In this document: in pieces, positions 1-64,000 of the stretch
Numbering within the stretch: the stretch's first letter is position 1
Layout: the number at the start of each line of letters is the position of its first letter
NCBI GenBank assembly: GCA_009914755.4
Contig: CP086569.2
Span: 27,456,001 to 27,520,000 of the forward strand
DNA length: 64,000 nucleotides
Direction: 5' to 3'
Origin: the human T2T-CHM13v2.0 reference genome, Homo sapiens
Made by a program: the position numbers and the translations under genes
Notes under the pieces: generated by a model
The model's database searches: none
What the model was told of the DNA's origin: nothing
What the model saw: the letters and a program-made list of their open reading frames with translations, nothing else

Positions 1-3000
1 TGTAGTGGAGTGGAATGGGATGGAATGGAATGGAATGCAATGGGGTCGAACAGCATGAAATCGAATTGCATGGAATCAAAATGAATCGAATCAAATCAAA
101 TCAAATCAAATGGAAAAAGTGGATTTGAATGGCATCAAATGGAGTCGAACGGAATGCGGTGAAGTGGAGGGGAGTGGAGTGGAATGGAGTGGAATGTAAT
201 TGGGTGGAATAAAATTGAATGAAGTGAAGTGGAGTGCAGTGGAGTGGACTGTAGTGAAATGGAATGGAATGGGAAGGAATGAAATTGAGCAGAGTGGAGT
301 GGCGTGGAGTGGAGTGCAGTGGAGTGGAGTGGAATGGAGTGAAATGGAGTGGAACCGAATGGAATGCAATGAAATGGAATGGAATGGAATTGAATTGCAT
401 GTAATCAAATAGCTTGGAATCAAAATGAATCAAATCAAATGGAAAAAATGGAATCGAGTGTAATCAAATGCCATCAAATGGAATCAAATGGAATGCAGTG
501 AAGAGGAGTGGAGTGGATTGGAGTGGAGTGGAGTGGACTGGAGTGGAATGGAATGGAATGGGAAGGAATGGAATAGAACGGAGTGGAGTGGAGTGGAGTG
601 CAGTGGCATGCAGTGGAGTGGAGTGGATTAGAGTGGATTGGAGTGGAATGGCGTGGAGTGGAGTGGAATGGAATGAAATGGACTGGACTGGAATGGAATG
701 GAATGGAATGGAATTGAATCACATTAAATCGAGTCGAATCACATCAAATCGAATGGAAACAATGGAATAGAATGGAATCAAATGGAATCAAATCGAATGG
801 ATTTGAAAGACATCGAACACATTTGAAAAGATTGCTGTAAAGTGGAGTGGAGTGGAATGGAGTGGAATGGAATGGGATGGAATGGAATTGAATGGAGTGG
901 AGTCGAGTGGAGTGGAGTGGACTGGAGTGGAGTGGACTGGAGTGGAATGCAATGCAATGGGAAGGAATGGAATTGAACAGAGAGCAGTGGCATGTAGTGG
1001 AGTGGAATGGAATGGAATGGAGTGGAGTGGAAAGGAATGGAATGGAGTGGAATGGAATGGAAAGGAATGGAATGGAGTAGAGTGGAGAGGAATGGAATTG
1101 AATGGAGTCAAATCGCATGAAATCGTATCGAATCAAATTGAATTGAATCGAAACGAATAAAATGGAAAAAGTGGAATTGAATGGAATTGAATCGAATGGA
1201 TTTGAATGGCACCCAATGAAATCGAATAGAATGTGGTGAAGTGGAGTGAAGTGGAACGGAATGGAATGGAATGGGGTGGAATGGAATTGAGAGGAGTGGA
1301 GTGGAGTGGATTGTAATGGAGTGGAGAGAAATAGAGTGGAATGGAATGGAATGGAATGGTACGGAATGGAATTGCATGGATTCGCATGGAATCTCATGGA
1401 AACAAATAAAATCGAATGGAATCAATCGAATGGATTCGAATGGAATCGAATAGAATCCAATGGAATGCAGTGAAGTGGAGTGCAGTTGAGTGGAATGGAG
1501 AGGAAGGTAATGGGATGGAAAGGAATGGAGTGGAGTGGAGAGGAGTGGAATGAAACGGATGAGAATGGAGATGAATGGAATGGAATGGAATAGAATGGAA
1601 TGAAATAGCATGGAATCGAATAACATGGAATAGAATCAAATGGAATTGAAAGGAAAAAATGGAAACGAATGGATTTGAATGGAATCAAATTGAATGGATT
1701 CAAATGTCATCGAAAGGAATCGAATGGAATGTGGTGAAGTGGAGTGGATTGGAATGGGGTTGTATGGAATTGAATGGAGTGTAGTGGAATGGAGCAGAGT
1801 GTAGTGGACTGGAGTGGAATGGAATCGAATTGGAAGGAATGGAATTGAACAGAGTGGAGTGGAGTGGAAAGGAGTGGAGTGGAGTGGAGTTGAATGGAAT
1901 GGAATGGAGTGGAATGGAATGGAATCCAATTGCATGGAATTCAATCGCATGGAATCAAAGCAAATCAAATCGAACCGAATGGAAAAAATGGAATAGAATG
2001 TAATCGAATGGAATAGAATTGAATGGACTTGAATGGCATCGAATGTAATCGAAAGGAATGCAGTGAAGTAGAGTGGAGTGGACTGGAATGTAGTGGAATG
2101 GAATGGGGTGGAATGGAATTGAATGGTGTGGAGCGGAGTAAAGTAGAGAGGACTCAAGTGGAATGGAATGGAATGGGAAGAAATGGAATTGAGCAGAGTG
2201 GAGTGGAGTGCAGTGGAGTGGAGTGGAATGGAGTGGAGCAGAATGGATTGGAGTGGAATGGAGTGGAGTGGAATCGATTGCAATGGAATGCAATGGACTT
2301 GAATGGAATGGAAAAGAATGGAATTGCATGGAATCAAATTGAATTGAATAGAAAAAATGGAATCAAATGGAATAGAAAGGAATTGAATCAAATGGAATCG
2401 AATGGTATCGAAGGGAATCAAATGAAATGCGGTGAAGTGGAGAGGAGTGGAGTGGAATGGAATGGAATGGAATGGAATGGAATGGAATGGAAAGGAGTAG
2501 AGTGGAATGGAATGTACTGGAGTGGAATAAAATTTAATGGAATGGAATGGAATCGAATAGCATGAAAATGAATAACATGGAATCAAAATGAATTAAATCG
2601 AAACGAATCAAATCGAATGGAAAATGTTGATTTGAATGGCATCAAATGGAATCGAATGGAATGTGGTGAAGTGGAGAGGAATGGACTGGAATGGAATGGG
2701 TGGAATGGAATTGAATGGAGTGGAGTGGAGTGGACTGTAGAGGAATGGAATGGGAAGGAAGGGAATTGAAAGGAGTGGAGTGGGGTGCAGTTGGTTGGAG
2801 TGGAGTGGAGAGGATTGGAGTGGAATGTGGTGGAGTGGAATGGGTTTCAATGGAATGCAGTGAACTTGAATGGAATGGAATGGAATGGAATCACATGGAA
2901 TCAAATTGAATGAAATCAAAATGAATCGAATTGAATAGAATGGAAAAAATAGAATCGAATGGAATTAAATGTCACGAAAAGGAATTGAGTGGAGTGAGGT

Positions 3001-6000
3001 GAAGTGGAGTGGAGTGGAATGGAATTGAATGGAAAGGAGTGGAGTGGAATGATGTATTGAATTGGAATGGAATGGAATGGAATAGAATGGAATGAAATTG
3101 AATAGCATGAATTCGAATCCCATGGTAACAAATTGAATCGACTTGAATCGAATCAAATCGAATGGAAAAAGTAGAATCGAATTGCATCGAATGGAATGTG
3201 CTGAAGTGGAATGGAGTGGAATGTAGTGGAATGGAATGGGTTGGAATGGAAAGGAATGAGTGGAGTTGAGTGTAGTGTAGTGAGTGTAGTGGAGTGGACT
3301 GTAGTGGAATGGAATGGAATGGGAAGGAATGCAATTGAACGGAGTGGAGTGGAGAGGAGTGCAGTGGTTTGGAGTGGATTGGAGTGGAATGGAGTGGAGT
3401 GGAATGGAATGGAATGGACTGGAATGGAATGGAAAGGAATGGAATCAAATCGAATTTAATTGAATCAAATCAAATTGAATGAAAAAAATAGAATTGAATG
3501 GAATCAAATGGAATCGAATGGAATCAAATCAAATGGATTCAAATTGCATAGAATGGAATCAAATGGAATGCGGTGAAGTGGAGTGGACATGAATGGAGTG
3601 GAATGGAATGGGTTGGAATGGAATTGAGTGGATTGGAGTGGAGTGAAGTGGAGTGGAGTTGAGTGGAGTGAAATGGAATGGAATGCAATGGAATGGAATT
3701 GAATCAAATGGAAAAAATGGAAACGAATGGAATCGAAACATATGGCTATGAAAGGCATAGAATGGAATTGAAAGGAATGCGGTGAAGTGGAGTGGAGTGG
3801 AATTGAGTGGAATGGAATTGGGTGGAATGGATTTAACAGGAGTGGAGTGGAGAGTGGTGGACTGGAGTGGAATGGAATGGGAAAGAATGAATTTGAATGG
3901 AGTGGAGTGGAGTGTAATGGAAAGGAGTGGATTGGAGAGGAGTGGAGTGCAATGGACTGGAGTGGAGTGGATTGGAGTGGAATGGAGTGGAGTGGAATGG
4001 AATGGGATGTACTGGAAGGGAATGCAATAGAATGGAATTGCATGAGGTTGAATTGAATCGAATTGAATGGAAAAAAAAGGAGTCGAATGGAATTGAACGG
4101 AATCAAATCAAATGGATTCAAATGGCAGCGAATGGAATCGAATGGAATGCGATGAAGTGGAGTGTAGAGGAATGGAGTGCAACGGATTTTGGTGGAATGG
4201 AATTGAATGGACTGGAGTGGAATGTAGTGGACAGGAGTGGAATGGAATGTAATGGGAAGGAATGGAATTGAACGGAGTGGAGTACAGTGGAATGGAGAAA
4301 AGTAGTGTGGAAAGGAATGGAGTGGAATGTGATGGAGTGGAATGGAGTGGAATGGAATGGAATGGAACAGAGTGGAGTGGAGTGGAGTGAAATGGAGTGG
4401 AGTGGAGTGTAATGCAATGGAATGGAATGGAATGCAATAGAGAGGAGTGGAGTGGAGTGGATTGGAGTGCAGTGTAGTGTAGTATAGTATAGGGCAATGG
4501 AATGGAATGGAAAGGAATGGAGTTGAGTGGAGTGGTGTGGAGTGGAGAGGAGTGGAGTGGAATGGAGAGGAGTGGAGTGCAGTGAAGTGGACCAGATTAG
4601 AGTGGAATGGAATGCAGTGGAGTTGAATGGAATGTAATGAAGTGGAATTTAGTGGAATGAAGTGGAATGGAATGGAATGGAGTAGAGAGGAATGGAATGG
4701 AGTGTAGTGGAATGGAAGGGATTGTAGTGGATTGGAGTGGAACGGAATGGAATTGAGTGGTAGGGACTGGAATGGAATGGAATGGAATCAAATCAAAGGG
4801 AATCTAATCTAATCAAAATGAATCACATCGAATTGAATGGAAAAAATGGAATTGAATGGAATCGAAAGGAATCAAATCGAATGGAATAGAATAGCATAGA
4901 ATGGAATCAAATGGAATGAGGTGAAGTGGAGTGGAGGGGAATGGATTGGAATGAAATGGGTTGGAAAGGAATCGAACGGACTGGAGTGGATTGAACTGGA
5001 GTGGAGTGGAATGGTACGGAGTGGAAAGTAGTGGAGTGGAGTGGATTGGTGTGGAATGCAGTGGAGAGGAGTGGAGCGGAGGGGATTGGAGTGGAATGGA
5101 GTGGAGTGGAATGGAATGGAATGGAATGGAATGAATTGGACCGGAATGCAATGGAATGGAATGGAATAGCATAAAATCGAATCAAAGCAAATTGAATCGA
5201 TTTGAATCGAATTGTATGGAAAAAAATGGAATCAAATGGAATCCAATAGAATGGATTCGAATAGCATCGAATGGAATTGAATGGAATGCGGGGAAGTGGA
5301 CTGGAGTGGAATGGAATGGGGTGGAATAGAATTGAATGGAGTGGACTGGAGTGGATTGGAGTGGAATGGAATGGAGTGGGAATGAATGGAATTGAATGGA
5401 GTGGAGTGGAGGTGAGTGCAGTGGAATGGAGAGGAATGGAGTGAAGTGGAGTGGAATGGACTAGAGTGGAATGGAATGGTGCAGACAGGAATGGAATGAA
5501 GTGGAGTGGAAGGGAATGGAATGGAATTGACTGGAATGGAGTGGAATGGAATGGAATAGAGTGGAATGAAATGGAAAGGAATGGAATGGAATGGAGTAGA
5601 ATGGAATGGAATGGAATAGAGTGGAGTGGAGTCGAGTGGATTGGAATGGAATGGAACGGAATGAGTTGAAACGAAATTGAATTGTAGGGAATCGAATCAA
5701 ATCAAATCAAATCAAATCACATCAAAACGAATAGAATGGAAAAAATGGAAGTGAATGGAATAGAATGGAATCGAATCAAATGAATTTGAATGGCATCAAA
5801 TGGAGTCAAATGGAATGTGGTGAAGTGGAGTGGAGAGGAGTGGAATGGAGTAGAATGGAGTGGAATGGAGTGGAATGGAGTGGAGTGGAAGGGAGTGGAA
5901 AGGAGTGGAATGGCGTGGATAGGTATGAAATGGAATGCATTGGAATGGAGTGGAATGGAATGCAATGAATGGAATCGGATGGAATTGAAACGAATCAAAT

Positions 6001-6690
6001 CAAATTGAATCGAATGGACCAAATGGAATCAAATGATATCAAACAAAATTGAATCAAACGGAATTGAATGGAATAGAATGAAATCAAATGGAAAGTGGTG
6101 AAGTGGAGTGTAGTGGAATGGAGTTTAATGGAATGGGTTGGAATGGAATTGAATGGACTGGAGTGGATTGGAGTGGAATGAAGTGGAGTGAGTGGAGTGG
6201 AATGGAGAGGAAAGTAGTTTAGTGGAGTGGATTGGAGTGGAATGGAGTGGAGTGGAATGGAATGGATTGGACTGAAATGGAATGGAATGGAATCAAATGG
6301 AATTGCATGGAATCAAATTGAACCAAATCTAATCAAATTTAATAGAATCAAAAGGGAAAAGTGGAATCAAAAGAAATCAAATTCAATGGATAGGAAAGGC
6401 ATCGAATGGAATTGAATGGAATGCGATGAAGTGGAGTGGAGTAGAATGGAGTGGAATGGAATCGGATGAAATGGAATTGAATGGAGTGGAGTGGTGTGGA
6501 GTGGACGGAGTATAATGGAATGGGAAGAAATGGAATTGAATGGAGTGGACTTGAGTGGGGTGGAATGGAGAGGAATGGAGGGGAAACGAGTGGAATGGAG
6601 GGGAAAAGAGAGGAATGGAGGGGAAAGTACTGGAAAGGAGTGAAGTGGAGGGGAATGGAGTAAAGTGGAATTGAATGCAGTGGAGTGGAA
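1..6690 (+). repeat. Diverged satellite segment without higher-order periodicity (ancestral-type subrepeats only)
   Basis: ORF peptides in this segment do not recur at a fixed period. Recurrent motifs such as aatgYRgtgaagtggagtgg and gggaaggaatggaattgaacRgagtggagtgg occur at irregular spacing of about 250-550 bp. Similarity to the downstream HOR decays gradually upstream of about 6.7 kb. Confidence 0.7.
6570..6665 (+). repeat. Local GGGG-rich variant block (ggaatggaggggaaaNNag x3 plus gtggaggggaatggag) at the edge of the HOR array
   Basis: Seen directly: ggaatggaggggaaacgag, tggaatggaggggaaaagag, aggaatggaggggaaagtactgg, ...gtggaggggaatggag. There are four GGGG runs about 20-25 bp apart. The block is absent at the homologous phase of downstream HOR copies, for example around 9.40-9.52 kb. 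Confidence 0.6.
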
Positions 6691-9135
6691 TGGAATGGAA
6701 TGGGCAGGAATGGAATTCAAAGGGGTGAATTGGAATTGAGTGCTGTGGATTGGAGTAGACTGCATTGTAGTGGATTGGAGAGGAAAGAAGTGGAGTGGAA
6801 TGGAATGGAATGCAATGGAGTGGAGTGGAATGGAATGGAGTGGAGTAGAATGGAATTTAATGGAGTGGAGTGGAATTGAGTGGAATGGAGAGTAATGGAG
6901 TGGAGTGGACTGGAGCGAAGTGGAGTGTAGTGCATTGGACTGTAGGGGATTGAAGTGGCTTGGAGTGCAATGGAGCGGAGTGGAATGGAATGGAATGGAA
7001 TGGAGTGGAATGGAATCGAATCATATGGAACTGAATCAAATCGAATTGAATGAAATTGAATGGAAAAAGTGGAATCAAATGGAATCAAATCGAATGGATT
7101 CGAATGACATTGAATGGAATCAAAAGGAATGCAGTGAGGTGGAGTTGAGTGGAATGGAGTGGAATGGAATGGGATGAATGGAACTGATTGGAGAGGAGTG
7201 GAATGGAATGGAATGGAAAGGAATGGAATTGAACAAAATGGAGTGTAGTAGAATGTAGTGGATAGGAGTGGAGTGCAGAGGAGTGCAGTGGAATGAAGAG
7301 GAGTGTAGTTGAATGGAATGGAATGGTATGGAACGTACAGGAATGGAATGGATAAGAATGGAATGGAATGGAATCGCATGGAATTGAATAGAATCAAATC
7401 GAATTGAATAGAATCAAATGGAAAAAATGGAGTCAAATGGAATCGAATGTCATAGAATCGAACGCTTTTGAATGTCAGTGAATGGAAACGAATGGAATGC
7501 GAAGAAGTGGAGTGGAGTGGAGTGGAAAGGAGTGCAATGGAATAGGGTGGAACAGAATTTAATGGAACAGAGTGGATTGGAGTGGACAGGAGAGGAATGG
7601 AATGGGAAGGAAAGGGATTGAAAGGAGTGGCGTGCAGTGGAGAGGAGTGGCACGGAGTGGAGTGGAGTGGAATGGAGTGGAATGGAGTGGAATGGAATGG
7701 AGTGGAATGGAGTGGATTGGAATGGAATGGAGTGCAGAGGAATGGAATGGAATGGTATAGAGTGGACAGGAATGGAGTGGAGTGGATTGGAATGGAATGG
7801 AATGTAAGGGAATGGAACTGAATGGACTGGAATGGAATGGAATAGAATGGAATCGCAGGGAATCAAATTGGATTGAATCGAATCGAATGGAAAAAATGAA
7901 ATCAAATGAAATTGAATGGAATCGAATTGAATGTAAACAATGGAATCCAAAGGAGACAAATGGAATCGAATCAAATGGTTTTGAATGGCATCAAATGAAA
8001 CGGCATAGAAGGCAGTGAATTGGAGTGGAGTGGAATAGAGAGGAATGAATTGGAATGGAGTGTAGTGGAATGGCGTGGATTCCAGTGGAGTGGAATAGAT
8101 TGGATTGGAATGGAATGGAATAGATTGGATTGGAGTGGTGCAGAGTGGAGTGGAATGGAGTGCAAAGGAATGGAGTGGAGTGAAGTCCAGTTGAGTGGAA
8201 TGGAATGGAGTGGAGCAGAGTGGAATGCAAAAGAATGAAGTGGATTCGTATGGAATGGAATGGCGTGGAATGGCATGAAATAGAATGGAATGGAATCGCA
8301 TGGAATGATATCAAATCAAATCGAATCGAACGGAAAATTATGAATCCAATGGAATCCAAAGGATTCTAAAGGAATGGATTCGAAAGACATTGAATGGAAT
8401 GGAAAGGAATGCAGTGGAGTAGAGTGGAGTGGAATGTTTTAGAGTAAACTGGGGTGGATTGGAACTTTATGGAGAGGAGTGGAGTGAAGTGGATTGGAGT
8501 GGAATGGACTGCAATGGACAGGAGTGGAGTGGAATGGATTGGAGTGGAGTGGAGTGGATCGGAGTGGAGTGCCGTGGAGTGGACTAGAGTGAGGTGGAGT
8601 GGAGTGCATTGGAGTGGAATGGAGTGGAGTGGGGTGCAACGGAATGGAATGGCATCAAATCGCATGGTAATGAATCAAATGGAATCAAATGGAATGGAAA
8701 TAATGGAATCGAAGGCAAACGAATGGAATCGAATTGCACAGATTCTACTGACTTCGAACAAAATGAAATGAAACGCGTTGAAGTGGAGTGGAGTGGAATG
8801 TATTGGGTGGAATGGAATTGAATGGTGTGGAGTGGAGTGGAGTGCCCAGGAGTGGAATGGGAAGAAATGGAATTGAACGGAGTGGAGTGGAGTGGAATGG
8901 GGCATAATGGAGTGGAATAGTGTGGAGTGGAGTAGAGTGGAATGGGTTGGAGTGGAATGCAGAGGACAGGAGTGGAGTGCGGTGGACTGGAGTGGAGTGA
9001 AGTTGAGTGGAGTGGATTGGATTGAAATAGAGCGGAGCAGAGTGGAATGGAATTGAGTCACATGGTATTGAATCAAATCGAATGGAATTAAATCGAATGA
9101 AAAAATGGAATCAAATGCAAACGAATGGAGTCAAA
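6690..9135 (+). repeat. HOR unit U0 (5-prime-most, partial homology, most diverged)
   Basis: ORFs 6685-6879, 6717-7436, 6905-7177 and 7450-8301 match ORFs of the next unit at an offset of about 2840 bp but with several substitutions. Homology upstream of about 6.69 kb is weak. Confidence 0.7.
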
Positions 9136-11954
9136 CCACATTGGTTAAACTGACATCGAATAATATCAAATGAAATGCGTTGAAGTGGAGTGGAGTGTAA
9201 CGAAATGGGGTGGAATGAAATTGAATGGAGTGGAGTGGATTGGAGTCTACTGGAGTGGAATGGAACGGAATGGAAAGGAATGGAATAGAATGGAGTGAAG
9301 TGCAGTGCAGTGAAATGGAGTGGAAAGGAATGGAATGGAATCAAATGGAGTCGAAGAGAATCGAATCTAATGAAATTGATCGGAAAAAATGGAATGGAGT
9401 AGAATCGAATAAGATGGATTCAAAAGGCAACAAATAGAATTGAATGGAATGCGATGAGGTGGAGGGCATTGGAACGGAGTTGAATGGAATGGGGTGTAAT
9501 TGAATTGAATGGAGTGGAGTGGATTGGAGTGGACTGGAGTGGAATGGAACGGAATGGGCAGGAATGGAATTGAAAGGGGTGAATTGGAATTGAGTGCTGT
9601 GGATTGGAGTAGACTGCATTGTAGTGGATTGGAGTGGAAAGAAGTGGAGTGGAATGGAATGGAATGCAATGGAGTGGAGTGGAATGGAATGGAGTGGAGT
9701 AGAATGGAATTTAATGGAGTGGAGTGGAATTGAGTGGAATGGAGAGTAATGGAGTGGAGTGGACTGGAGCGAAGTGGAGTGTAGTGCATTGGACTGTAGG
9801 GGATTGAAGTGGCTTGGAGTGCAATAGAGTGGAGTGGAATGGAATGGAATGGAATGGAATCGAATCACATGGAACTGAATCAAATCGAATTGAATGAAAT
9901 TGAATGGAAAAAATGGAATCAAATGGAATCAAATCGAATGGATTCGAATGACATTGAATGGAATCGAAAGGAATGCAGTGAGGTGGAGTTGAGTGGAGTG
10001 GAGTGGAATGGAATGGGATGAATGGAATTGATTGGAGAGGAGTGGAATGGAATGGAATGGAAAGGAATGGAATTGAACGAAATGGAGTGTAGTAGAAAGT
10101 AGTGGATTGGAGTGGAGTGCAGGGGTGTGCAGTGGAATGAAGAGGAGTGTAGTTGAATGGAATGGAATGGTATGGAACGTACTGGAATGGAATGGATAAG
10201 AATGGAATGGAATGGAATCGCATGGAATTGAATAGAATCAAATCGAATTGAATAGAATCAAATGGAAAAAATAGAGTCAAATGGAATCAAATGTCATAGA
10301 ATCGCACGGTTTTGAATGTCAGTGAATGGAAACGAATGGAATGCGATGAAGTGGAGCGGAGTGGAGTTGAAAGGAGTGCAATGGAATAGGGTGGAAGAGA
10401 ATTTAATGGAACAGAGTGGATTGGAGTGGACTGGAGTGGAATGGAAAGGGAAGGAATGGGATTGAAAGGAGAGGCGTGCAGTGGAGTGGAGTGGCATGGA
10501 GTGGAGTGGAGTCGAATGGAGTGGAATGGAGTGGATTGGAATGGAATGGAGTGCAGAGGAATGGAATGGAATGGTATAGAGTGGACAGGAATGGAGTGGA
10601 GTGGATTGGAATGGAATGGAATGTAAGGGAATGGAACTGAATGGACTGGAATGGAATGGAATAGAATGGAATCGCAGGGAATCAAATTGGATTGAATCGA
10701 ATCGAATGGATAAAATGAAATCAAATGAAATTGAATGGAATCGAATTGAATGTAAACAATGGAATCCAAAGGAGTCAAATGGAATTGAATCAAATGGTTT
10801 TGAATGGCATCAAATGAAATGGCATGGAAGGCAGTGAATTGGAGTGGAATGGAATAGAGAGGAACGAATTGGAATGGAGGGTAGTGGAATGGAGTGGATT
10901 CCAGTGGAGTGGAGTGGATTGGATTGGAATGGAATGGAATAGATTGGATTGGAGTGGTGCAGAGTGGAGTGGACTGGAGTGCAGAGGAATGGAGTGGAGT
11001 GAAGTCCAGTTGAGTGGAATGGAATGGAGTGGAGCAGAGTGGAATGCAAAAGAATGAAATGGATTGGTATGGAATGGAATGGCGTGGAATGGCGTGGAAT
11101 AGAATGGAATGGAATCGCATGGAATGATATCAAATCAAATCAAATCGAACGGAAAATAATGAATCCAATGGAAGCGAAAGGATTCTAAAGGAATGGATTC
11201 GAAATGCATTGAATGGAATGGAAAGGAATGCAGTGAAGTGGAGTGGAGTGGAATGTTTTAGAGTGAACTGGGGTGGATTGGAACTTTATGGAGAGGAGTG
11301 GAGTGAAGCGGATTGGAGCGGAATGGAGTGCAATGGACTGGAGTGGAGTGGAATGGATTAGAGTGGAGTGGAGTGGATCGGAGTGGAGTGCCGTGGAGTG
11401 GACTAGAGTGGGGTGGAGTGGAGTGCATTGGAGTGGAATGGAGTGGAGTGGGGTGGAATGGAATGGAATGGGATCAAATCGCATGGTAATGAGTGAAATG
11501 GAATCAAATGGAATGGAAATAATGGAATCGAAGGCAAACGAATGGAATCGAATTGCACTGATTCTACTGACTTCGAACAAAATGAAATGAAACGCGGTGA
11601 AGTGTAGTGGAGTGGAATGTATTGGGTGGAATGGAATTGAATGGTGTGGAGTGGAGTGGAGTGCCCAGGAGTGGAATGGGAAGAAATGGAATTGAACGGA
11701 GAGGAGTGGAGTGGAATGGGGCATAATGGAGTGGAATAGTGTAGAGTAGAGTAGAGTGGAATGGGTTGGAGTGGAATGCAGAGGACAGGAGTGGAGTGTG
11801 GTTGACTGGAGTGGAGTGGAGTTGAGTGGAGGGGATTGGATTGAAATAGAGGGGAGCAGAGTTGAATGGAATTGAGTCACATGGTAATGAATCACATCGA
11901 ATGGCTTTAAATCGAATGAAAAAATGGAATCAAATGCAAACGAATGGAGTCAAA
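9136..11954 (+). repeat. HOR unit U1 (2819 bp, early diverged type)
   Basis: Bounded by landmark to landmark. The tail ORF 11273-11590 (MDWNFMERSGVKRIGAEW...) is a diverged variant of the periodic ORF family. Confidence 0.8.
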
Positions 11955-14828
11955 CCACATTGGTTAAACTGACATCGAATAATATCAAATGAAATGTGGT
12001 GAAGTGGAGTGCAGTGTAACGAAATGGGGTTTAATGAAATTGAATGGATTGGAGTGGATTGGAGTCTACTGGAGTGGAATGGAATGGAATGGAAAGGAAT
12101 GGAATAGAATGGAGTGAAGTGCAGTGCAGTGAAATGGAGTGGAAAGGAATGGAATGGAATGGAATGGAATGGAATGGAATGGAATCAAATGGAATCGAAG
12201 TGAATCGAATCTAATGAAATTGATCGGAAAAAATGGAATGGAGTAGAATCGAATAAGATGGATTCAACAGGCAACAAATAGAATTGAATGGAATGCGGTG
12301 AGTTGGAGGGCATTGGAATGGAGTTGAATGGAATGGGGTGTAATTGAATTGAATGGAGTAGAGTGGATTGGAGTGGACTGGAGTGGAATGGAGCGGAATG
12401 GGCAGGAATGGAATTGAAAGGGGTGAATTGGAATTGAGTGCTGCGGATTGGGGTAGACTGCATTGTAGTAGATTGGAGTGGAAAGAAGTGGAGTGGAATG
12501 GAATGGAATGCAATGGAGTGGAGTGGAATGGAATGGAGTGGAGTAGAATGGAATTTAATGGAGTGGAGTGGAATTGAGTGGAATGGAGAGTAATGGAGTG
12601 GAGTGGACTGCAACGAAGTGGAGTGTAGTGCATTGGACTGTAGGGGATTGAAGTGTCTTGGAGTGCAATGGAGTGGAGTGGAATGGAATGGAATGGAATG
12701 GAATTGAATGGAATGGAATGGAGTGGAATGGAATCGAATCAGATGGGACTGAATCAAATCGAATTGAATGAAAATGAATGGAAAAAAAAGAATCAAATGG
12801 AATCAAATCGAATGGATTCGAATGATATTGAATGGAATTGAAAGGAATGCAGTGAGGTGGAGTTGAGTGGAATGGAGTGGAATGGAATGGGATGAATGGA
12901 ATTGACTGGAGAGGAGTGGAATGGAATGGAATGGAAAGTCATGGAATTGAAAAAAATGGAGTGTAGTAGAATGTAGTGGATTGGAGTGGAGTGCAGGGGA
13001 GTGCAGTGGAATGAAGTGGAGTGTAGTTGAATGGAATGGAGGGGTATGGAACGTACTGGAATGGAATGGATAAGAATGGAATGGAATGGAATCGCATGGA
13101 ATTGAATAGAATCAAATCGAATTGAATAGAATCAAATGGAAAAAATGGAGTCAAATGGAATCGAATGTCATAGAATCGAACGGTTTTGAATGTCAGTGAA
13201 TGGAAACGAATGGAATGCGATGAAGTGGAGCGGAGTGGAGTGGAAAGGAGTGCAATGGAATAGGGTGGAAGAGAATTTAATGGAACAGAGTAGATTGGAG
13301 TGGACTGGAGTGGAATGGAATGGGAAGGAATGGGATTGAAAGGAGTGGCGTGCAGTGGAGTGGAGTGGCATGGAGTGGAGTGGAGTGGAATGGAGTGGAA
13401 TGGAGTGGATTGGAATGGAATGGAGTGCAGAGGAATGGAATGGGATGGTATAGAGTGGACAGGAATGGAGTGGAGTGGATTGGAATGGAATGGAATGTAA
13501 GGGAATGGAACTGAATGGACTGGAATGGAATGGAATAGAATGGAATCGCAGGGAATCAAATTGGATTGAATCAAATCGAATGAAAAAAATGAAATCAAAT
13601 GAAATTGAAAAGAATCGAATTGAATGGAAACAATGGAATCGAATGGAGTCAAATGGAATCGAATCAAATCGTTTTGAATGGCGTCAAATGAAATGGCATG
13701 GAAGGCAGTGAATTGGAGTGGAGTGGAATAGAGAGGAATGAATTGGAATGGAGTGTAGTGGAATAGAGTGGATTCCAGTGGAGTGGAGTGGATTGGATTG
13801 GAATGGAATGGAATAGATTGGATTGGAGTGGTGCAGAGTGGAGTGGACTGGAGTGCAGAGGAATGGAGTAGAGAGAAGTCCAGTTGAATGGAATGGAATG
13901 GAGTGGAGCAGAATTGATTGCAAAAGAATGAAGTGGATTGGTATGGAATGGAATGGCGTGCAATGGCGTGGAGTAGAATGGAATGGAATCACATGGAATG
14001 ATATCAAATCAAATCGAATCGAACGGAAAATTATGAATCCAATGGAATCGAAAGGATTCTAAAGGAATGGATTCGAAAGACATTGAATGGAATGGAAAGG
14101 AATGCAGTGGAGTGGAGTGGAGTGGAATGTTTTAGAGTGAACTGAGGTGGATTGGAACTCTATGGAGAGGAGTGGAGTGAAGTGGATTGGAGTGGAATGG
14201 AGTGCAATGGACTGGAGTGGAGTGGAATGGATTGGAGTGGAGTGGAGTGGATCGGAGAGGAGTGCCGTGGAGTGGACTAGAGTGGGGTGGAGTGGAGTGC
14301 ATTGGAGTGGAATGGAGTGGAGTGGGCTGGAATGGAATGGAATGGAATCAAATCGCATGGTAATGAATGAAATGGAATCAAATAGAATGGAAATAATGGA
14401 ATCGAAGGCAAACGAATGGAATCGAATTGCACTGATTCTACTGACTTCGAACAAAATAAAATGAAACGCGGTGAAGTGGAGTGGAGTGGAATGTATTGGG
14501 TGGAATGGAATTGAATGGTGTGGAGTGGAGTGGAGTGCTCAGGAGTGGAATGGGAAGAAATGGAATTGAACGAAGTGGAGGGGAGTGGAATGGGGCATAA
14601 TGGAGTGCAATAGTGTGGAGTGGAGTAGAGTGGAATGGGTTGGAGTTGAATGCAGAGGACAGGAGTGGAGTGCGGTGGACTGAGGTGGAGTGAAGTTGAG
14701 TGGAGTGGATTGGATTGAAATAGAGCGGAGCAGAGTGGAATGGAATTGAATTACATGGTATTGAATCAAATCGAATGGAATTAAATCGAATGAAAAAATG
14801 GAATCAAATGCAAACGAATGGAGTCAAA
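11955..14828 (+). repeat. HOR unit U2 (2874 bp)
   Basis: Bounded by landmark to landmark. It contains an expanded pure (GGAAT)8 tract at 12146-12185. Confidence 0.8.
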
Positions 14829-17676
14829 CCACATTGGTTAAACTGACATCGAATAATATCAAATGAAATGCGGTGAAGTGGAGTGGAGTGTAACGAAATG
14901 GGGTGGAATGTAATTGAATGGAGTGGAGTGTTTGGAGTCTACTGGAGTGGAATGGAACGGAATGGAAAGGAATGGAATGGAATGGAGTGAAGTGCAGTGC
15001 AGTGAAATGGAGTGGAAAGGAATGGAATGGAATCAAATGGAGTCGAAGTGAATCGAATCTAACGAAATTGATCGGAGAAAATTGAATGGAGTAGAATCGA
15101 ATAAGATGGATTTAAAAGACAACAAATAGAATTGAATGGAATGCGGTGAGGTGGAGGGCACTGGAACGGAGTTGAATGGAATGGGGTGTAATTGAATTGA
15201 ATGGAGTGGAGTGGATTGGAGTGGACTGGAGTGGAATGGAACGGAATGGGCACGAATGGAATTGAAATGGGTGAATTGGAATTGAGTGCTGTGGATTGGA
15301 ATAGACTGCAATGTAGTGGATTGGAGTGGAAAGAAGTGGAGTGGAATGGAATGGAATGCAATGGAGTGGAGTGGAATGGAATGGAGTGTAGTAGAATGGA
15401 ATTTAATGGAGTGGAGTGGAATTGAGTGGAATGGAGAGTAATGGAGTGGAGTGGACTGGAGCAAAGCGGAGTGTAGTGCATTGGACTGTAGGGGATTGAA
15501 GTGGCTTGGAGTGCAATGGAGTGGAGTGGAATGGAATGGAATGGAATGGAATGGAGTGGAATGGAATCAAATCACATGGAACTGAATCAAATCAAATTGA
15601 ATGAAATTGAATGGAAAAAATGGAATCAAATGGAATCAAATCGAATGGATTCGAATGACATTGAATGGAATCGAAAGGAATGCAGTGAGGTGGAGTTGAG
15701 TGGAATGGAGTGGAATGGAATGGGATAAATGGAATTGACTGGAGAGGAGTGGAATGGAATGGAATGGAAAGGAATGGATTTGATGAAAATGGAGTGTAGT
15801 AGAATGTAGTGGATTGGAGTGGAGTGCAGGGGAGTGCAGTGGAATGAAGAGGAGTGTAGTTGAATGGAATGGAATGGTATGGAACGTACTGGAATGGAAT
15901 GGATAAGAATGGAATGGAATGGAATCGCATGGAATTGAATAAAATCAAATCGAATTGAATAGAATCAAATGGAAAAAATGGAGTGAAATGGAATCGAATG
16001 TCATAGAATCGAACGGTTTAGAATGTCAGTGAATGGAAACGAATGGAATGCGATGAATTGGAGCGGAGTGGAGTGGAAAGGAGTGCAATGGAATAGGGTG
16101 GAACAGAATTTAATGGAAGAGTGTAGATTGGAGTGTACTGGAGTGGAATGGAATGGGAAGGAATGGGATTGAAAGGAGTGGCGTGCAGTGGAGTGGAGTG
16201 GCATGGAGTGGAGTGGAGTGGAATGGAGTGGAATGGAATGGAGTGGAATGGAGTGGATTGGAATGGAATGGAGTGCAGAGGAATGGAATGGGATGGTATA
16301 GAGTGGACAGGAATGGAGTGGAGTGGATTGGAATGGAATGGAATGTAAGGGAATGGAACTGAATGGACTGGAATGGAATGGAATAGAATGGAATCGCAGG
16401 GAATCAAATTGGATTGAATCGAATCGAATGGAAAAAATGAAAACAAATGAAATTTTATAGAATCGAATTGAATGTAAACAATGGAATCCAATGGAGTCAA
16501 ATGGAATCGAATCAAATGGTTTTGAATGGCATCAAATGAAACGGCATGGAAGGCAGTGAATTGGAGTGGAGTGGAATAGAGAGGAATGAATTGGAATGGA
16601 GTGTAGTGGAATGGAGTGGATTCTAGTGGAGTGGAGTGGATTGGATTGGAATGGAATGGAATAGATTGGATTGGAGTGGTGCAGAGTGGAGTGGACTGGA
16701 GTGCAGAGGAATGGAGTGGAGTGAAGTCGAGTTGAGTGGAATGGAATGGAGTGTAGCAGAGTGGAATTCAAATGAATGAAGTGGATTGGTATGGAATGGA
16801 ATGGCGTGGAATGGAGTGGAATAGAATGGAATGGAATCGCATAGAATGATATCAAATCAAATCGAATCGAACGGAAAATTATGAATCCAATGGAGTCGGA
16901 AGGATTATAAAGGAATGGATTCGAAAGACATTGAATGGAATGGAAAGGAATGCAGTGAAGTGGAGTGGAGTGGAATGTTTTAGAGTGAACTGGGGTGGAT
17001 TGGAACTCTATGGAGAGGAGTGGAGTGAAGTGGATTGGAGTGGAATGGAGTGCAATGGACTGGAGTGGATTGGAATGGATTGGAGTGGAGTGGAGTGGAT
17101 CGGAGTGGAGTGCCGTGGAGGGGACTAGAGTGGGGTGGAGTGGAGTGCATTGGAGTGGAATGGAGTGGCGTGGGGTGGAATGGAATGGAATGGGATCAAA
17201 TCGCATGGTAATGAATGAAATGGAATCAAATGGAATGGAAATAATGGAATCGAAGGCAAACGAATGGAATCGAATTGCACAGATTCTACTGACTTCGAAC
17301 AAAATGAAATGAAATGCGGTGAAGTGGAGTGGAGTGGAATGTATTGGTTGGAATGGAATTGAATGGTGTGGAGTGGAGTGGAGTTCCCAGGAGTGGAATG
17401 GGAAGAAATGGAATTGAACGGAGTGGAGTGGAGTGGAATGGGGCATAATGGAGTGGAATAGTGTGGAGTGGAGTAGAGTGGAATGGGTTGGAGTGGAATG
17501 CAGAGGACAGGAGTGGAGTGCGGTGGACTGGAGTGGAGTGAAGTTGAGTGGAGTGGATTGGATTGAAATAGAGCGGAGCAGAGTGGAATGGAATTGAATC
17601 ACATGGTATTAAATCAAATCGAATGGAATTAAATCGAATGAAAAAATGGAATCAAATGCAAACGAATGGAGTCAAA
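14829..17676 (+). repeat. HOR unit U3 (2848 bp)
   Basis: Bounded by landmark to landmark. Periodic ORFs 16532-17602 and 16995-17312. Confidence 0.8.
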
Positions 17677-20530
17677 ACACATTGGTTAAACTCACAACGA
17701 ATAATATCAAATGAAATGCGGTGAAGTGGAGTGGAGTGTAACGAAATGGGGTGGAAGGAAATTGAATAGAGTGGAGTGGATTGGAGTCTACTGGAGTGGA
17801 ATGGAACGGAATGGAAAGGAATGGAATAGAATGGAGTGAAGTGCAGTGCAGTGAAATGGAGTGGAAAGGAATGGAATGGAATCAAATGGAATCGAAGTGA
17901 ATCGAATCTAATGAAATTGATCGGAAAAAATGGAATGGAGTAGAATCGAATAAGATGGATTCAAAGGCAACAAATAGAATTGAATGGAATGCGGTGAGGT
18001 TGAGGGCATTGGAATGGAGTTGAATGGAATGGGGTGTAATTGAAATGAATGGAGTGGAGTGGATTGTAGTGGACTGGAGTGGAAAGGAACGGAATGGGAA
18101 GGAATGGAATTGAAAGGGGTGAATTGGAATTGAGTGCTGTGGATTGGAGTAGACTGCATTGTAGTGGATTGGAGTGGAAAGAAGTGGAGTGGAATGGAAT
18201 GGAATGCAATGGAGTGGAGCGGAATGGAATGGAGTGGAGTAGAATGGAATTTAATGGAGTGGAGTGGAATTGAGTGGAATGGAGAGTAATGGAGTGGAGT
18301 GGACTGGAGCGAAGTGGAGTGTAGTGCCTTGGACTATAGGGGATTGAAGTGGCTTGGAGTGCAATGGAGTGGAGTGGAATCGAATGAAATGGAATGGAAT
18401 GGAACGTAGTGGAATGGAATCGAATCACATGGAACTGAATCAAATCGAATTGAATGAAATTGAACGGAAAAAATGAAATCCAATGGAATCAAATCGAATG
18501 GATTCGAATGACATTGAATGGAATCGAAAGGAATGCAGTGAGGTGGAGTTGAGTGGAGTGGAGTGGAATGGAATGGGATGAATGGAATTGACTGGAGATG
18601 AGTGGAATGGAATGGAATGGAAAGCAATGGAATTGAACGAAATGGATTGTAGTAGAATGTAGTGGATTGGAGTGGAGTGCAGGGGAGTGCAGTGGAATGA
18701 AGAGGAGTGTAGTTGAATGGAATGGAATGGTATGGAACGTACTGGAATGGAATGGATAAGAATGGAATGGAATGGAATCGCATGGAATTGAAAAGAATCA
18801 AATCGAATTGAATAGAATCAAATGGAAAAAATGGAGGCAAATGGAATCGAATGTCACAGAATCGAACGGTTTTGAATGTCAGTGAATGGAAACGAATGGA
18901 ATGCGATGAAGTGGAGCGGAGTGGAGTGGAAAGGAGTGCAATGGAATAGGGTGGAAGAGAATTTAATGGAACAGATTGGATTGGAGTGGACTGGAGTGGA
19001 ATGGAAAGGGAAGGAATGGGATTGAAAGGAGTGGCGTGCAGTGGAGTGGAGTGGCATGGAGTGGAGTGGAGTGGAATGGAGTGGAATGGAATGGAGTGGA
19101 ATGGAGTGGATTGGAATGGAATGGAGTGCAGAGGAATGGAATGGAATGGTATAGAGTGGACAGGAATAGAGTGGAGTGGATTGGAATGGAATGGAATGTA
19201 AGGGAATGGAACTGAATGGACTGGAATGGAATGGAATAGAATGGAATCGCAGGGAATCAAATTGGATTGAATCGAATCGAATGGAAAAAATGAAATCAAA
19301 TGAAATTGAATGGAATCGAATTGAATGTAAACAATGGAATCCAATGGAGTCAAATGGAATCGAATCAAATGGTTTTGAATGGCATCAAATGAAATGGCAT
19401 GGAAGGCAGTGAATTGGAGTGGAGTGGAATAGAGAGGAATGAATTGGAATGGAGTGTAGTGGAATGGCGTGGATTCCAGTGGAGTGGAGTGGATTGGATT
19501 GGAATGGAATGGAATAGATTGGATTGGAGTGGTGCAGAGTGGAGTGGACTGGAGTGCAGAGGAATGGAGTGGAGTGAAGTCCAGTTGAGTGGAATGGAAT
19601 GGAGTGGAGCAGAGTGGAATGCAAAAGAATGAAGTGGATTGTTATGGAATGGAATGGCGTGGAATGGCGTGGAATAGAATGGAATGGAATCGCATGGAAT
19701 GATACCAAATCAAATCGAATCAAACGGAAAATTATGAATCCAATGGAATCGAAAGGATTCTAAAGGAATGGATTCGAAAGGCATTGAATGGAATGGAAAG
19801 GAATGCAGTGGAGTGGAGTGGAGTGGAATATTTTAGAGTGAACTTGGGTGGATTGGAACTCTATGGAGAGGAGTGGAGTGAAGTGGATTGGAGTGGAATG
19901 GAGTGCAATGGACTGGAGTGGAGTGGAATGGATTGGAGTGGAGTGGAGTGGATCGGAGTGGAGTGCCGTGGAGTGGACTAGAGTGAGGTGGAGTAGAGTG
20001 CATTGGAGTGGAATGGAGTGGAGTGGGGTGCAACGGAATGGAATGGCATCAAATCGCATTGTAATGAATCAAATGGAATCAAATGGAATGGAAATAATGG
20101 AATCGAAGGCAAACGAATGGAATCGAATTGCACTGATTCTACTGACTTCGAACAAAATGAAATGAAACGCGGTGAAGTGGAGTGGAGTGGAATGTATTGG
20201 GTGGAATGGAATAGAATGGTGTGGAGTGGAGTGGAGTGCCCAGGAGTGGAATGGGAAGAAATGGAATTGAAGGGAGTGGATTGGAGTGGAATGGGGCATA
20301 ATGGAGTGGAATAGTGTGGAGTGGAGTAGAGTGGAATGGGTTGGAGTAGAATGCAGAGGACAGGATTGGAGTGCGTTGGACTGGAGTGGGGTAGAGTTGA
20401 GTGGAGTGGAGTGGATTGAAATAGAGCGGAGCAGAGTGGGATGGAATTGAATCACATGGTATTGAATCAAATCGAATGGAATTAAATCGAATGAAAAAAA
20501 TGGAATCAAATGTAAACGAATGGAGTCAAA
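17677..20530 (+). repeat. HOR unit U4 (2854 bp, a-like tail)
   Basis: Landmark variant acacattggttaaactcacaacgaa at 17677. Tail ORF 19848-20165 is close to the a type. Confidence 0.8.
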
Positions 20531-63649: not shown

Positions 63650-64000
63650 CCTCATTGGTTAAACTGACATCGAAAAATATCAAATGAAATGTGGTGAAGT
63701 GGAGTGCAGTGTAATGAAATGGGGTGGAATGAAATTGAATGGAGTGGAGTGGATCGGAGTCTACTGGAGTGGAATGGAACGGAATGTAAAGGAATGGAAT
63801 AGACTGCAGTGAAGTGCAGTGCAGTGAAATGGAGTGGAAAGGAATGGAATGGAATGGAATGGAACGGAAACAAATGGTATCGAAGTGAATCGAATCTAAT
63901 GAAATTGATCGGAAAAAATGGAATGGAGTAGAATCGAATAAGATGGATTCAAAGGCAACAAATAGAATTGAATGGAATGCGGTGAGGTGGAGGGCATTGG
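63650..64000 (+). repeat. HOR unit U20 (truncated by the window end)
   Basis: The landmark cctcattggttaaactgacatcgaaaaatatc restarts at 63650. The following 350 bp match the start of U19. Confidence 0.8.

What the first reader, a model, noticed from the sequence alone, without database searches (positions are those of the whole stretch)
6300..6700. Array edge: transition from diverged satellite to homogenised HOR
Downstream of about 6.69 kb every segment has a near-identical partner one period away. Between about 6.3 and 6.69 kb, the sequence at the phase where the landmark should fall (about 6297) shows only loose similarity to the corresponding part of U1. Example strings are aatctaatcaaatttaatagaatcaaaagggaaaagtgg in U0 versus aatctaatgaaattgatcggaaaaaatggaatgg in U1. 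Upstream of that point no 2.87 kb periodicity exists at all. This looks like the boundary of a homogenisation domain. Homogenisation might have stopped at this edge, or the flank might be older and escaped conversion.
Basis: seen in the sequence. Interest (0 to 1): 0.55.

Follow-up and report, generated by a model that had tools for sequence, protein, structure and literature searches.

The report
Left end of a satellite repeat array
This is the left end of a tandem array of 2.87-kb units built from the GGAAT pentamer satellite (human-satellite-3 type), sitting in older, unordered satellite of the same kind; it is a clean but ordinary example of how such arrays are known to begin and age at their ends.

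Summary
From position 6681 to the end of the window there are 20 head-to-tail copies of a 2844-2894 bp unit (consensus 2874 bp). Upstream there is no 2.87-kb periodicity. Identity to the sequence one period downstream is 0.75, the same as a half-period control (0.74). Inside the array it is 0.95.

The break can be placed at 6681-6696. This is a 15-bp generic stretch (TGGAGTGGAATGGAA) shared by both sides, and the pentamer register runs through it unbroken.

The flank is not an old copy of the unit that escaped conversion. Aligned in phase, it scores worse than almost every rotated alignment (rank 111 of 115). The flank block involved is the least similar to its supposed partner.

So 6.68 kb is the structural end of the amplified block. 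The true homogenisation gradient lies inside the array:
- Private substitutions per unit fall from 34-54 (units 0-3) to 0-6 (units 7-19).
- Near-identical multi-unit duplications (99.7% over 8 kb) begin only 14 kb inside the edge.

Both features are textbook behaviour of satellite arrays. Interest is low.

The parts
1..6680 (+). Flank: diverged GGAAT-type satellite with no 2.87-kb periodicity. It holds 19 A-rich (low-G) blocks at irregular spacings of 208-746 bp.
   Evidence: Self-matches are only 77-87% identical and occur at many different offsets. There are no minus-strand matches.
6295..6399 (+). Last A-rich block of the flank (F19).
Evidence: most similar to unit block H1 (0.77) and least similar to H7 (0.69).
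6681..6696 (+). Junction interval: TGGAGTGGAATGGAA, shared by the flank side and the unit side, followed by a T at 6696 that is C in all 19 other copies.
   Evidence: Fixed differences from the other copies occur at 6662-6680 and then stop, apart from 6696. The pentamer register is continuous across the junction.
6681..18074 (+). Units U0-U3: diverged edge units of the 2.87-kb array.
   Evidence: They are 93.8-95.9% identical to each other, carry 34-54 private substitutions each, and differ from their nearest neighbour by 3.5-4.0%.
18075..26678 (+). Units U4-U6: transition zone.
   Evidence: Private substitutions are 22, 10 and 10. Nearest-neighbour distance is 2.1-1.3%.
26679..64000 (+). Units U7-U19 (the last is cut by the window end): the recently homogenised interior, with variant classes and multi-unit duplications.
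   Evidence: Each unit has 0-6 private substitutions. U8, U12 and U15 are 99.9-100% identical, and U7, U11 and U14 are 99.2-99.4% identical.
26967..35026 (+). 8.06-kb segment repeated at +20106 bp (47073-55132) with 99.7% ungapped identity. Its sub-segment 27031-32774 recurs at +11502 bp, and 38516-44277 recurs at +8604 bp.
   Evidence: No such segment starts to the left of 20723.
8741..8773 (+). Unit-diagnostic motif GATTCTACTGACTTCGANNAAAATGAAATGAAA (first of 20 copies, one per unit).
   Evidence: 20 matches, none in the flank. It was used to retrieve 21 related contigs.

Best explanation
Position 6681-6696 is the left structural end of a tandem array of a 2.87-kb unit. Altemose et al. would call such a unit a 'nested tandem repeat'; loosely, it is a higher-order repeat. 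The array lies in GGAAT-pentamer, human-satellite-3-type DNA.

The unit is a block of seven diverged sub-repeats. Each sub-repeat has a G-rich GGAGT/GGAAT stretch and an A-rich block of 93-143 bp (about 114 on average). These blocks are only 65-78% alike. A block of this kind, taken from unordered satellite like the present flank, was amplified head to tail. The likely mechanism is out-of-register (unequal) exchange between short in-register pentamer homologies. The flank is what was never included in the amplification, so homology stops in one step.

Since then the array has turned over mainly by multi-unit duplications of 3, 4 and 7 units in its interior. Units at the end take little part in such exchanges. 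They have therefore accumulated private mutations, which produces the divergence gradient over U0-U6.

Shown here: the sharp junction, the lack of collinearity between flank and unit, the seven-block anatomy, the gradient, and the interior duplications. Inferred: unequal exchange as the mechanism, and that the amplification happened in place.
For: - Sharp step in +1-period identity from 0.75 (equal to the control) to 0.95; junction at 6681-6696 within 15 bp of shared sequence and in continuous pentamer register.
- Flank not collinear with the unit: rank 111 of 115 and 98 of 115. The flank's A-rich blocks best match only H1, H2 or H3 and show no 7-block order. Unit markers are absent from the flank.
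- Exactly 7 low-G blocks in each of 19 complete units, against irregular blocks in the flank.
- Same strand throughout, with no inverted matches.
- Gradient: private substitutions 34, 39, 54, 40, 22, 10, 10, then 0-6.
- Near-identical segments of 1.7-8 kb at offsets of 1-7 units, none starting left of 20.7 kb.
- The unit is real and recurs in 21 independent public assemblies at 88-98% identity.
- Literature: multi-kb HSat2,3 units expand 'hyper-locally' and periodicity varies along arrays (bioRxiv 10.1101/2021.07.12.452052). Central repeats are homogenised more efficiently than those at array ends (PMC5615363).
Against: - The window holds only one end of the array, so in-place amplification cannot be told apart from insertion of a ready-made array.
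- Blocks H5-H7 of the unit have no close relative in the 6.7 kb of flank. That is slightly awkward for a purely local origin.
- Related contigs suggest the same unit lies next to other sequences at other phases.
- No read-level data were available to exclude an assembly join at the junction.
- The proximal flank has somewhat fewer CpG (13.5/kb against 19.4/kb), but the distal flank does not (18.6/kb). There is therefore no clean independent sign of age.
Confidence: 0.75

Rival explanations
1. The flank is made of old copies of the same 2.87-kb unit that escaped homogenisation and decayed. This is the reader's second option and would correspond to a 'divergent HOR layer'.
For: - Flank and unit share the same satellite family, strand and G-rich/A-rich block architecture.
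- One flank segment, 3370-3652, matches 6223-6505 at an offset of 2853 bp with 81.7% identity.
Against: - In-phase alignment is no better than rotated alignments: rank 111 of 115 and 98 of 115.
- The +1-period identity equals the half-period control.
- The offset-2853 match is one of many equally good paralogous hits of the same segment, at offsets of 593, 1343, 1707, 1717 and 3571.
- Flank block F19 is least similar to H7.
- Unit-specific motifs are absent from the flank.
- Identity falls from about 97% to background in one step, with no intermediate copies.
Confidence: 0.04
2. The array, or a founding piece of it, was formed elsewhere and was inserted or transposed into a pre-existing field of diverged satellite. 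Possible routes are segmental duplication, exchange between non-homologous chromosomes, or reintegration of a circle. On this reading 6681-6696 is an insertion breakpoint.
For: - The same unit occurs in public contigs joined to other sequences at other phases. Unique DNA joins it at phase about 2750 (L006). Unique DNA plus Alu joins at about 2480 (L018). An Alu fragment joins at about 1437 (L016).
- A different GGAAT satellite joins at phase about 353. This junction has identical sequence in two independent assemblies, L006 and L013, and L021 breaks off at the same point.
- Blocks H5-H7 have no close relatives in the flank.
- The junction has only 15 bp of shared sequence.
Against: - The contigs are short-read metagenome assemblies. 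They collapse tandem arrays and can be chimeric in low-complexity DNA. L006's unique left part is not confirmed by L021, which reads through that phase.
- Strand and pentamer register are continuous across the window junction.
- The divergence gradient shows this has been an array end for a long time. That fits either model.
Confidence: 0.17
3. The junction is an assembly artefact: a mis-join or collapse between two different satellite regions.
For: Satellite arrays are the regions most prone to mis-assembly. No read data were available here.
Against: - Units become steadily more divergent toward the junction over about 20 kb. This is expected of a biological array end, not of an arbitrary join.
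- Register and strand are continuous.
- Units differ enough (4-6% at the edge) to be assembled unambiguously with long reads.
Confidence: 0.04

Closest known systems
Nested tandem repeats (multi-kb units) of human satellites 2 and 3, e.g. the 3.6-kb DYZ1 unit (HSat3A6) and the 1.77-kb chr1 HSat2 unit (Altemose 2014, PMC4022460; Altemose et al. 2021, bioRxiv 10.1101/2021.07.12.452052; Y chromosome paper, bioRxiv 10.1101/2022.12.01.518724)
   Same: - A multi-kb unit derived from the (CATTC)n/(GGAAT)n pentamer and repeated head to tail at 94-100% identity.
- Periodicity confined to part of a larger satellite field, with local expansions.
- Related contigs carry Alu, which points to a primate origin.
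   Different: - The unit length of 2.87 kb is not one I could find reported.
- None of the 14 published subfamily marker 24-mers matches exactly. The closest is the HSat3A4 marker at one mismatch.
- Species, chromosome and subfamily remain undetermined.
Alpha-satellite HOR arrays flanked by divergent or monomeric layers, and the 'layered expansion' picture of centromeric arrays (bioRxiv 10.1101/2021.07.12.452052)
   Same: - A homogeneous array of higher-order units.
- A flank of the same family without higher-order periodicity.
- The youngest, most identical copies in the interior and the older ones toward the edge.
   Different: - The base repeat is a 5-bp pentamer with irregular sub-repeats of 290-510 bp, not 171-bp monomers. 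In the strict sense it is therefore not a HOR.
- No divergent-HOR intermediate layer is present. Homology ends in one step.
- No link to centromere function is implied.
Edge effect of unequal crossing-over in tandem arrays (McAllister & Werren 1999, as cited in PMC5615363; Smith 1976 model)
   Same: Repeats near the array end are less homogenised and carry more private mutations than central repeats.
   Different: Only one end is visible here, and the mechanism is inferred from the pattern rather than observed.

Membership tests
Human satellite 3-type (CATTC/GGAAT pentamer-derived) satellite | Base periodicity of 5 bp with a GGAAT/TGGAA consensus and strong strand asymmetry | tested here: met
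   - TRF reports period 5 with consensus TGGAA over 6-63248.
- Lags of 5-25 bp give 62-69% identity.
- There are 2820 GGAAT against 5 CATTC on the + strand.
Human satellite 3-type (CATTC/GGAAT pentamer-derived) satellite | Not HSat2: lacks the HSat2 23/26-bp signature (ATCGAATGGAATCGAATGGAATCATC-type). This feature is taken from my own knowledge. | tested here: met
   There are 0 matches to that 26-mer. The HSat2A1, HSat2A2 and HSat2B marker 24-mers give 0 hits at up to 2 mismatches.
Human satellite 3-type (CATTC/GGAAT pentamer-derived) satellite | Assignment to one of the 14 published HSat2,3 subfamilies by its marker 24-mer (Altemose 2014, Table 1) | tested here: not met
   No marker matches exactly. 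The HSat3A4 marker has 28 hits at 1 mismatch, but it is of low complexity. Only the single commonest marker per subfamily was available, so the subfamily remains open.
Human satellite 3-type (CATTC/GGAAT pentamer-derived) satellite | Human or primate origin | tested here: inconclusive
   The window itself has no non-satellite sequence. Contigs carrying the same unit contain Alu fragments (L016, L018). This indicates a primate host. The species was not determined.
Nested tandem repeat / higher-order repeat array | A multi-kb unit repeated head to tail, with copies far more alike than its internal sub-repeats | tested here: met
   There are 20 copies. Pairwise identity over all alignment columns, indels included, is 92.5-100%. 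Internal A-rich blocks are 65-78% alike, and paralogous matches of the probe are 73-79%.
Nested tandem repeat / higher-order repeat array | Strict HOR: a discrete number of monomers of similar length | tested here: not met
   There are seven sub-repeats per unit in all 19 complete units, but their spacing ranges from 291 to 513 bp. 'Nested tandem repeat' is the better term.
Array-end divergence gradient (unequal-exchange edge effect) | Unit-to-unit divergence and private mutations rise toward the array end | tested here: met
   Private substitutions for U0-U6 are 34, 39, 54, 40, 22, 10 and 10, and for U7-U19 are 0-6. Nearest-neighbour distance falls from 3.5-4.0% to 0.8% or less, apart from U13 at 1.5%.
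Array-end divergence gradient (unequal-exchange edge effect) | The same pattern at the other end of the array | not testable with these tools
   The array runs off the right end of the window.
Divergent-HOR layer (decayed copies of the same unit next to the array) | Flank collinear, in phase, with the unit at reduced identity | tested here: not met
   In-phase alignment ranks 111 of 115 and 98 of 115 among rotations. The +1-period identity equals the control.

The most novel reading that the evidence does not exclude
The 2.87-kb unit is a mobile block. The same unit sits at several loci with different truncation points: phase 0 here, and about 353, 1437, 2480 and 2750 in public contigs, some next to unique DNA or Alu. 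On this reading the sharp 15-bp-homology junction at 6681-6696 marks where a pre-formed array was seeded into an older satellite field, and is not the limit of an in-place duplication. That would document inter-locus spread of an HSat3-type nested repeat, with datable edges.
Probability: 0.17. Interest if true: 0.35.

Novelty: already known. Interest (0 to 1): 0.12.

Why it matters
It matters little beyond annotation. The window gives a clean, base-resolved example of two things already described for satellite DNA. The first is a multi-kb nested repeat that has expanded locally inside GGAAT-pentamer satellite. The second is an array end whose terminal units are older than the interior ones.

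Its practical value is threefold:
- The junction sequence (6660-6708) is unique in the window and could serve as a marker for this array end.
- The gradient and the multi-unit duplications give an internal relative time-scale for array turnover.
- The analysis corrects the idea that the flank is a decayed copy of the unit.

Tried and rejected
1. Plain autocorrelation did not show the 2.87-kb period, because indels shift the copies. It showed only 5-bp multiples and a peak at 8604 bp, later explained by an indel-free 3-unit duplication.
2. Flank as a decayed unit: rejected by the rotation test and the block comparison.
3. A hint of a 2853-bp offset inside the flank: rejected as one of many paralogous hits of a generic segment.
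4. Inversion or strand switch at the edge: none found. GC skew is constant and there are no minus-strand HSPs.
5. Transposon or non-satellite insert at the junction: none is visible in the sequence.
6. CpG depletion as an age marker for the flank: inconsistent between the two halves of the flank.
7. Subfamily assignment with published 24-mers: no exact match.
8. Search for the junction 49-mer in metagenome and prokaryote genome collections: no match. No related contig matches the flank at 90% or more. So the question of whether other haplotypes share the edge could not be answered.
9. Literature search for a 2.87-2.9 kb HSat3 unit: none found in the papers read.
10. First attempt at calling A-rich blocks by motif density was too crude. 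It was replaced by G-content.

Full report
**What the window is.** All 64 kb is a single-strand-biased pentameric satellite. TRF finds period 5 with consensus TGGAA from 6 to 63248. G is 37% and C 6% of bases, and GC skew is about +0.7 in every 1-kb bin. There are no inverted matches. The sequence alternates between G-rich stretches (GGAGT/GGAAT) and A-rich blocks of about 70-145 bp (ATCGAATGGAA/CAAAT-type).

This is the architecture of (CATTC)n-derived classical satellite of the human-satellite-3 type. HSat2-type signatures and the CAACCCGAGT motif are absent. None of the 14 published subfamily marker 24-mers (PMC4022460) matches exactly, so the subfamily is open.

**Checking the observation.** A 200-bp probe from 6681 recurs 19 more times at 95.5-98.5% identity. 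This defines units of 2844-2894 bp starting at 6681, 9535, 12379 and so on up to 61180. The consensus is 2874 bp, and the array continues past the window end.

- In the flank, identity is 0.747 +- 0.032. A control placed half a period off gives 0.736 +- 0.027, which is indistinguishable.
- In the array, identity is 0.954 against a control of 0.716.
- The step lies between the chunks starting at 6601 and 6701.

BLAST of 300-bp chunks tells the same story.

**The junction at base resolution.** I compared U0 with the other 19 copies column by column, ungapped. Fixed differences occur at 6662, 6663, 6670, 6672, 6675, 6678 and 6680. After that there are none except 6696, which is T here and C in all 19 others.

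The breakpoint therefore lies in 6681-6696. This is a 15-bp generic TGGAGTGGAATGGAA present on both sides, and the pentamer register is continuous across it. The 60% identity in the 70 bp upstream is simply what any two in-register pentamer stretches give. The junction falls inside a G-rich stretch. No foreign sequence, strand switch or register shift marks it.

**Is the flank a decayed copy of the unit?** No. Four tests agree.
- Global alignment of the 2874 bp immediately upstream to the consensus, in phase, gives 69.5% identity. By score it ranks 111th of 115 rotations. The next 2874 bp ranks 98th.
- The unit contains exactly seven A-rich blocks (H1-H7) in each of the 19 complete copies. The flank has 19 such blocks at irregular spacings of 208-746 bp.
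- Every flank block best matches H1, H2 or H3, with no seven-fold order.
- Unit-specific motifs, including a 33-mer present once per unit, are absent from the flank.

One flank match at an offset of 2853 bp looked suggestive. However, it is one of many equivalent hits of a generic segment.

Flank sub-repeats resemble each other, and resemble unit sub-repeats, at 77-87%. The unit's own seven blocks are 65-78% alike. The flank is thus unordered satellite of the same kind as the material from which the unit was built.

**Where homogenisation really fades.** The array is not uniform.
- Units U0-U3 are only 93.8-95.9% identical to one another and to the rest.
- Private substitutions per unit are 34, 39, 54, 40, 22, 10 and 10 for U0-U6, and 0-6 for U7-U19.
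- Nearest-neighbour distances fall from 3.5-4.0% to 0.8% or less, apart from U13 at 1.5%.

The interior consists of variant classes and long near-identical segments:
- 26967-35026 recurs at +20106 bp with 99.7% ungapped identity.
- 27031-32774 recurs at +11502 bp.
- 38516-44277 recurs at +8604 bp.

These offsets correspond to 7, 4 and 3 units. No such segment starts left of 20.7 kb.

There are therefore two boundaries. One is a hard structural end of the unit at 6.68 kb. The other is a soft gradient of turnover across the first 20 kb or so of the array.

**Mechanism.** The best reading is that a seven-sub-repeat block of diverged satellite was amplified by out-of-register exchange at short in-register homologies. 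The flank was never part of that block. Later turnover has proceeded by multi-unit duplications in the interior, leaving the terminal units to age.

The anatomy, junction, gradient and duplications are shown here. The exchange mechanism and the in-place origin are inferred. This matches published descriptions:
- Multi-kb HSat2,3 'nested tandem repeats' expand hyper-locally, with periodicity varying along arrays. Alpha-satellite HOR arrays are flanked by unordered layers (bioRxiv 10.1101/2021.07.12.452052).
- Homogenisation is more efficient in the centre of arrays than at their ends (PMC5615363, citing McAllister & Werren 1999).

**Related sequences elsewhere.** The junction 49-mer has no exact match in the metagenome or prokaryote genome collections. 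The unit-diagnostic 33-mer retrieves 21 metagenome contigs and none from prokaryote genomes.

These contigs are 88-98% identical to the consensus, and several span more than one unit. The unit is therefore a real, recurrent sequence. L016 and L018 carry Alu fragments beside the unit, which indicates primate (presumably human) host DNA.

None of the contigs contains the window's flank, so nothing can be said about other haplotypes.

Some contigs join the unit to other sequences at other phases. One junction, to a different GGAAT satellite at phase about 353, has identical sequence in L006 and L013, and L021 breaks off at the same point. This hints that the unit exists at other loci with other edges. 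It keeps alive the rival idea that the array was seeded here from elsewhere. These are short-read assemblies of repeats, however, and must be treated cautiously.

**Verdict.** The feature is the ordinary left end of an HSat3-type nested-tandem-repeat array, with a textbook edge gradient. It belongs to a known kind and is of low interest. Its main value is annotation, and it could also serve as a unique junction marker.

Noticed in passing
window 26967-35026 and 47073-55132; 27031-32774 and 38533-44276; 38516-44277 and 47120-52881: Large near-identical, indel-free duplications spanning 2-3 units at offsets of 7, 4 and 3 units (99.7% identity). They give the array interior a super-structure of variant classes: U7/11/14, U8/12/15, U9/16 (with U10 a more distant member), and U17-19. 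They also explain the odd autocorrelation peak at 8604 bp.
   Followed up: yes
L006 1-738 and 4049-4795; L013 1-685; L021 3561-3956: In public metagenome contigs the same 2.87-kb unit ends at phase about 353 (window-equivalent 58639) against a different GGAAT satellite. The junction sequence is identical in L006 and L013, and L021 breaks off at the same point. L006 also has 738 bp of unique non-satellite DNA joined at phase about 2750. This suggests another locus or array with different edges, but short-read collapse or chimerism is possible.
   Followed up: partly
L016 about 1190-1260 (reverse strand); L018 2806-3515: Alu fragments lie directly beside the unit. L016 has a piece of about 65 bp from an Alu 3' end at unit phase about 1437. 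L018 has unique DNA ending in an Alu at phase about 2480. This indicates a primate host and further distinct unit edges.
   Followed up: partly
window 8655-8771 and 9058-9175 (blocks H5 and H6, and their equivalents in every unit): Two adjacent A-rich blocks of the unit are paralogues of each other (0.77). They carry sequence unlike the pentamer satellite (GATTCTACTGACTTCGAA and TGGTTAAACTGACATCGAA) that is absent from the flank. This may be an older internal dimer or a remnant of foreign sequence. The origin was not determined because no transposon library was available.
   Followed up: partly
window 3341-6680 compared with 1-3340 and with the array: The proximal half of the flank has fewer CpG (13.5/kb; TCGAA fraction 0.20) than the distal half (18.6/kb; 0.34) or the array (19.4/kb; 0.34). 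This local difference has no clear explanation.
   Followed up: no
L001 714-2007 against 1915-5122; also L002 and L007: Some contigs carry unit copies only 88-90% identical to the window consensus, next to copies at 97%. L001 has a period of 2801 bp. More diverged variants of the same unit therefore exist somewhere in the host genome or genomes.
   Followed up: no
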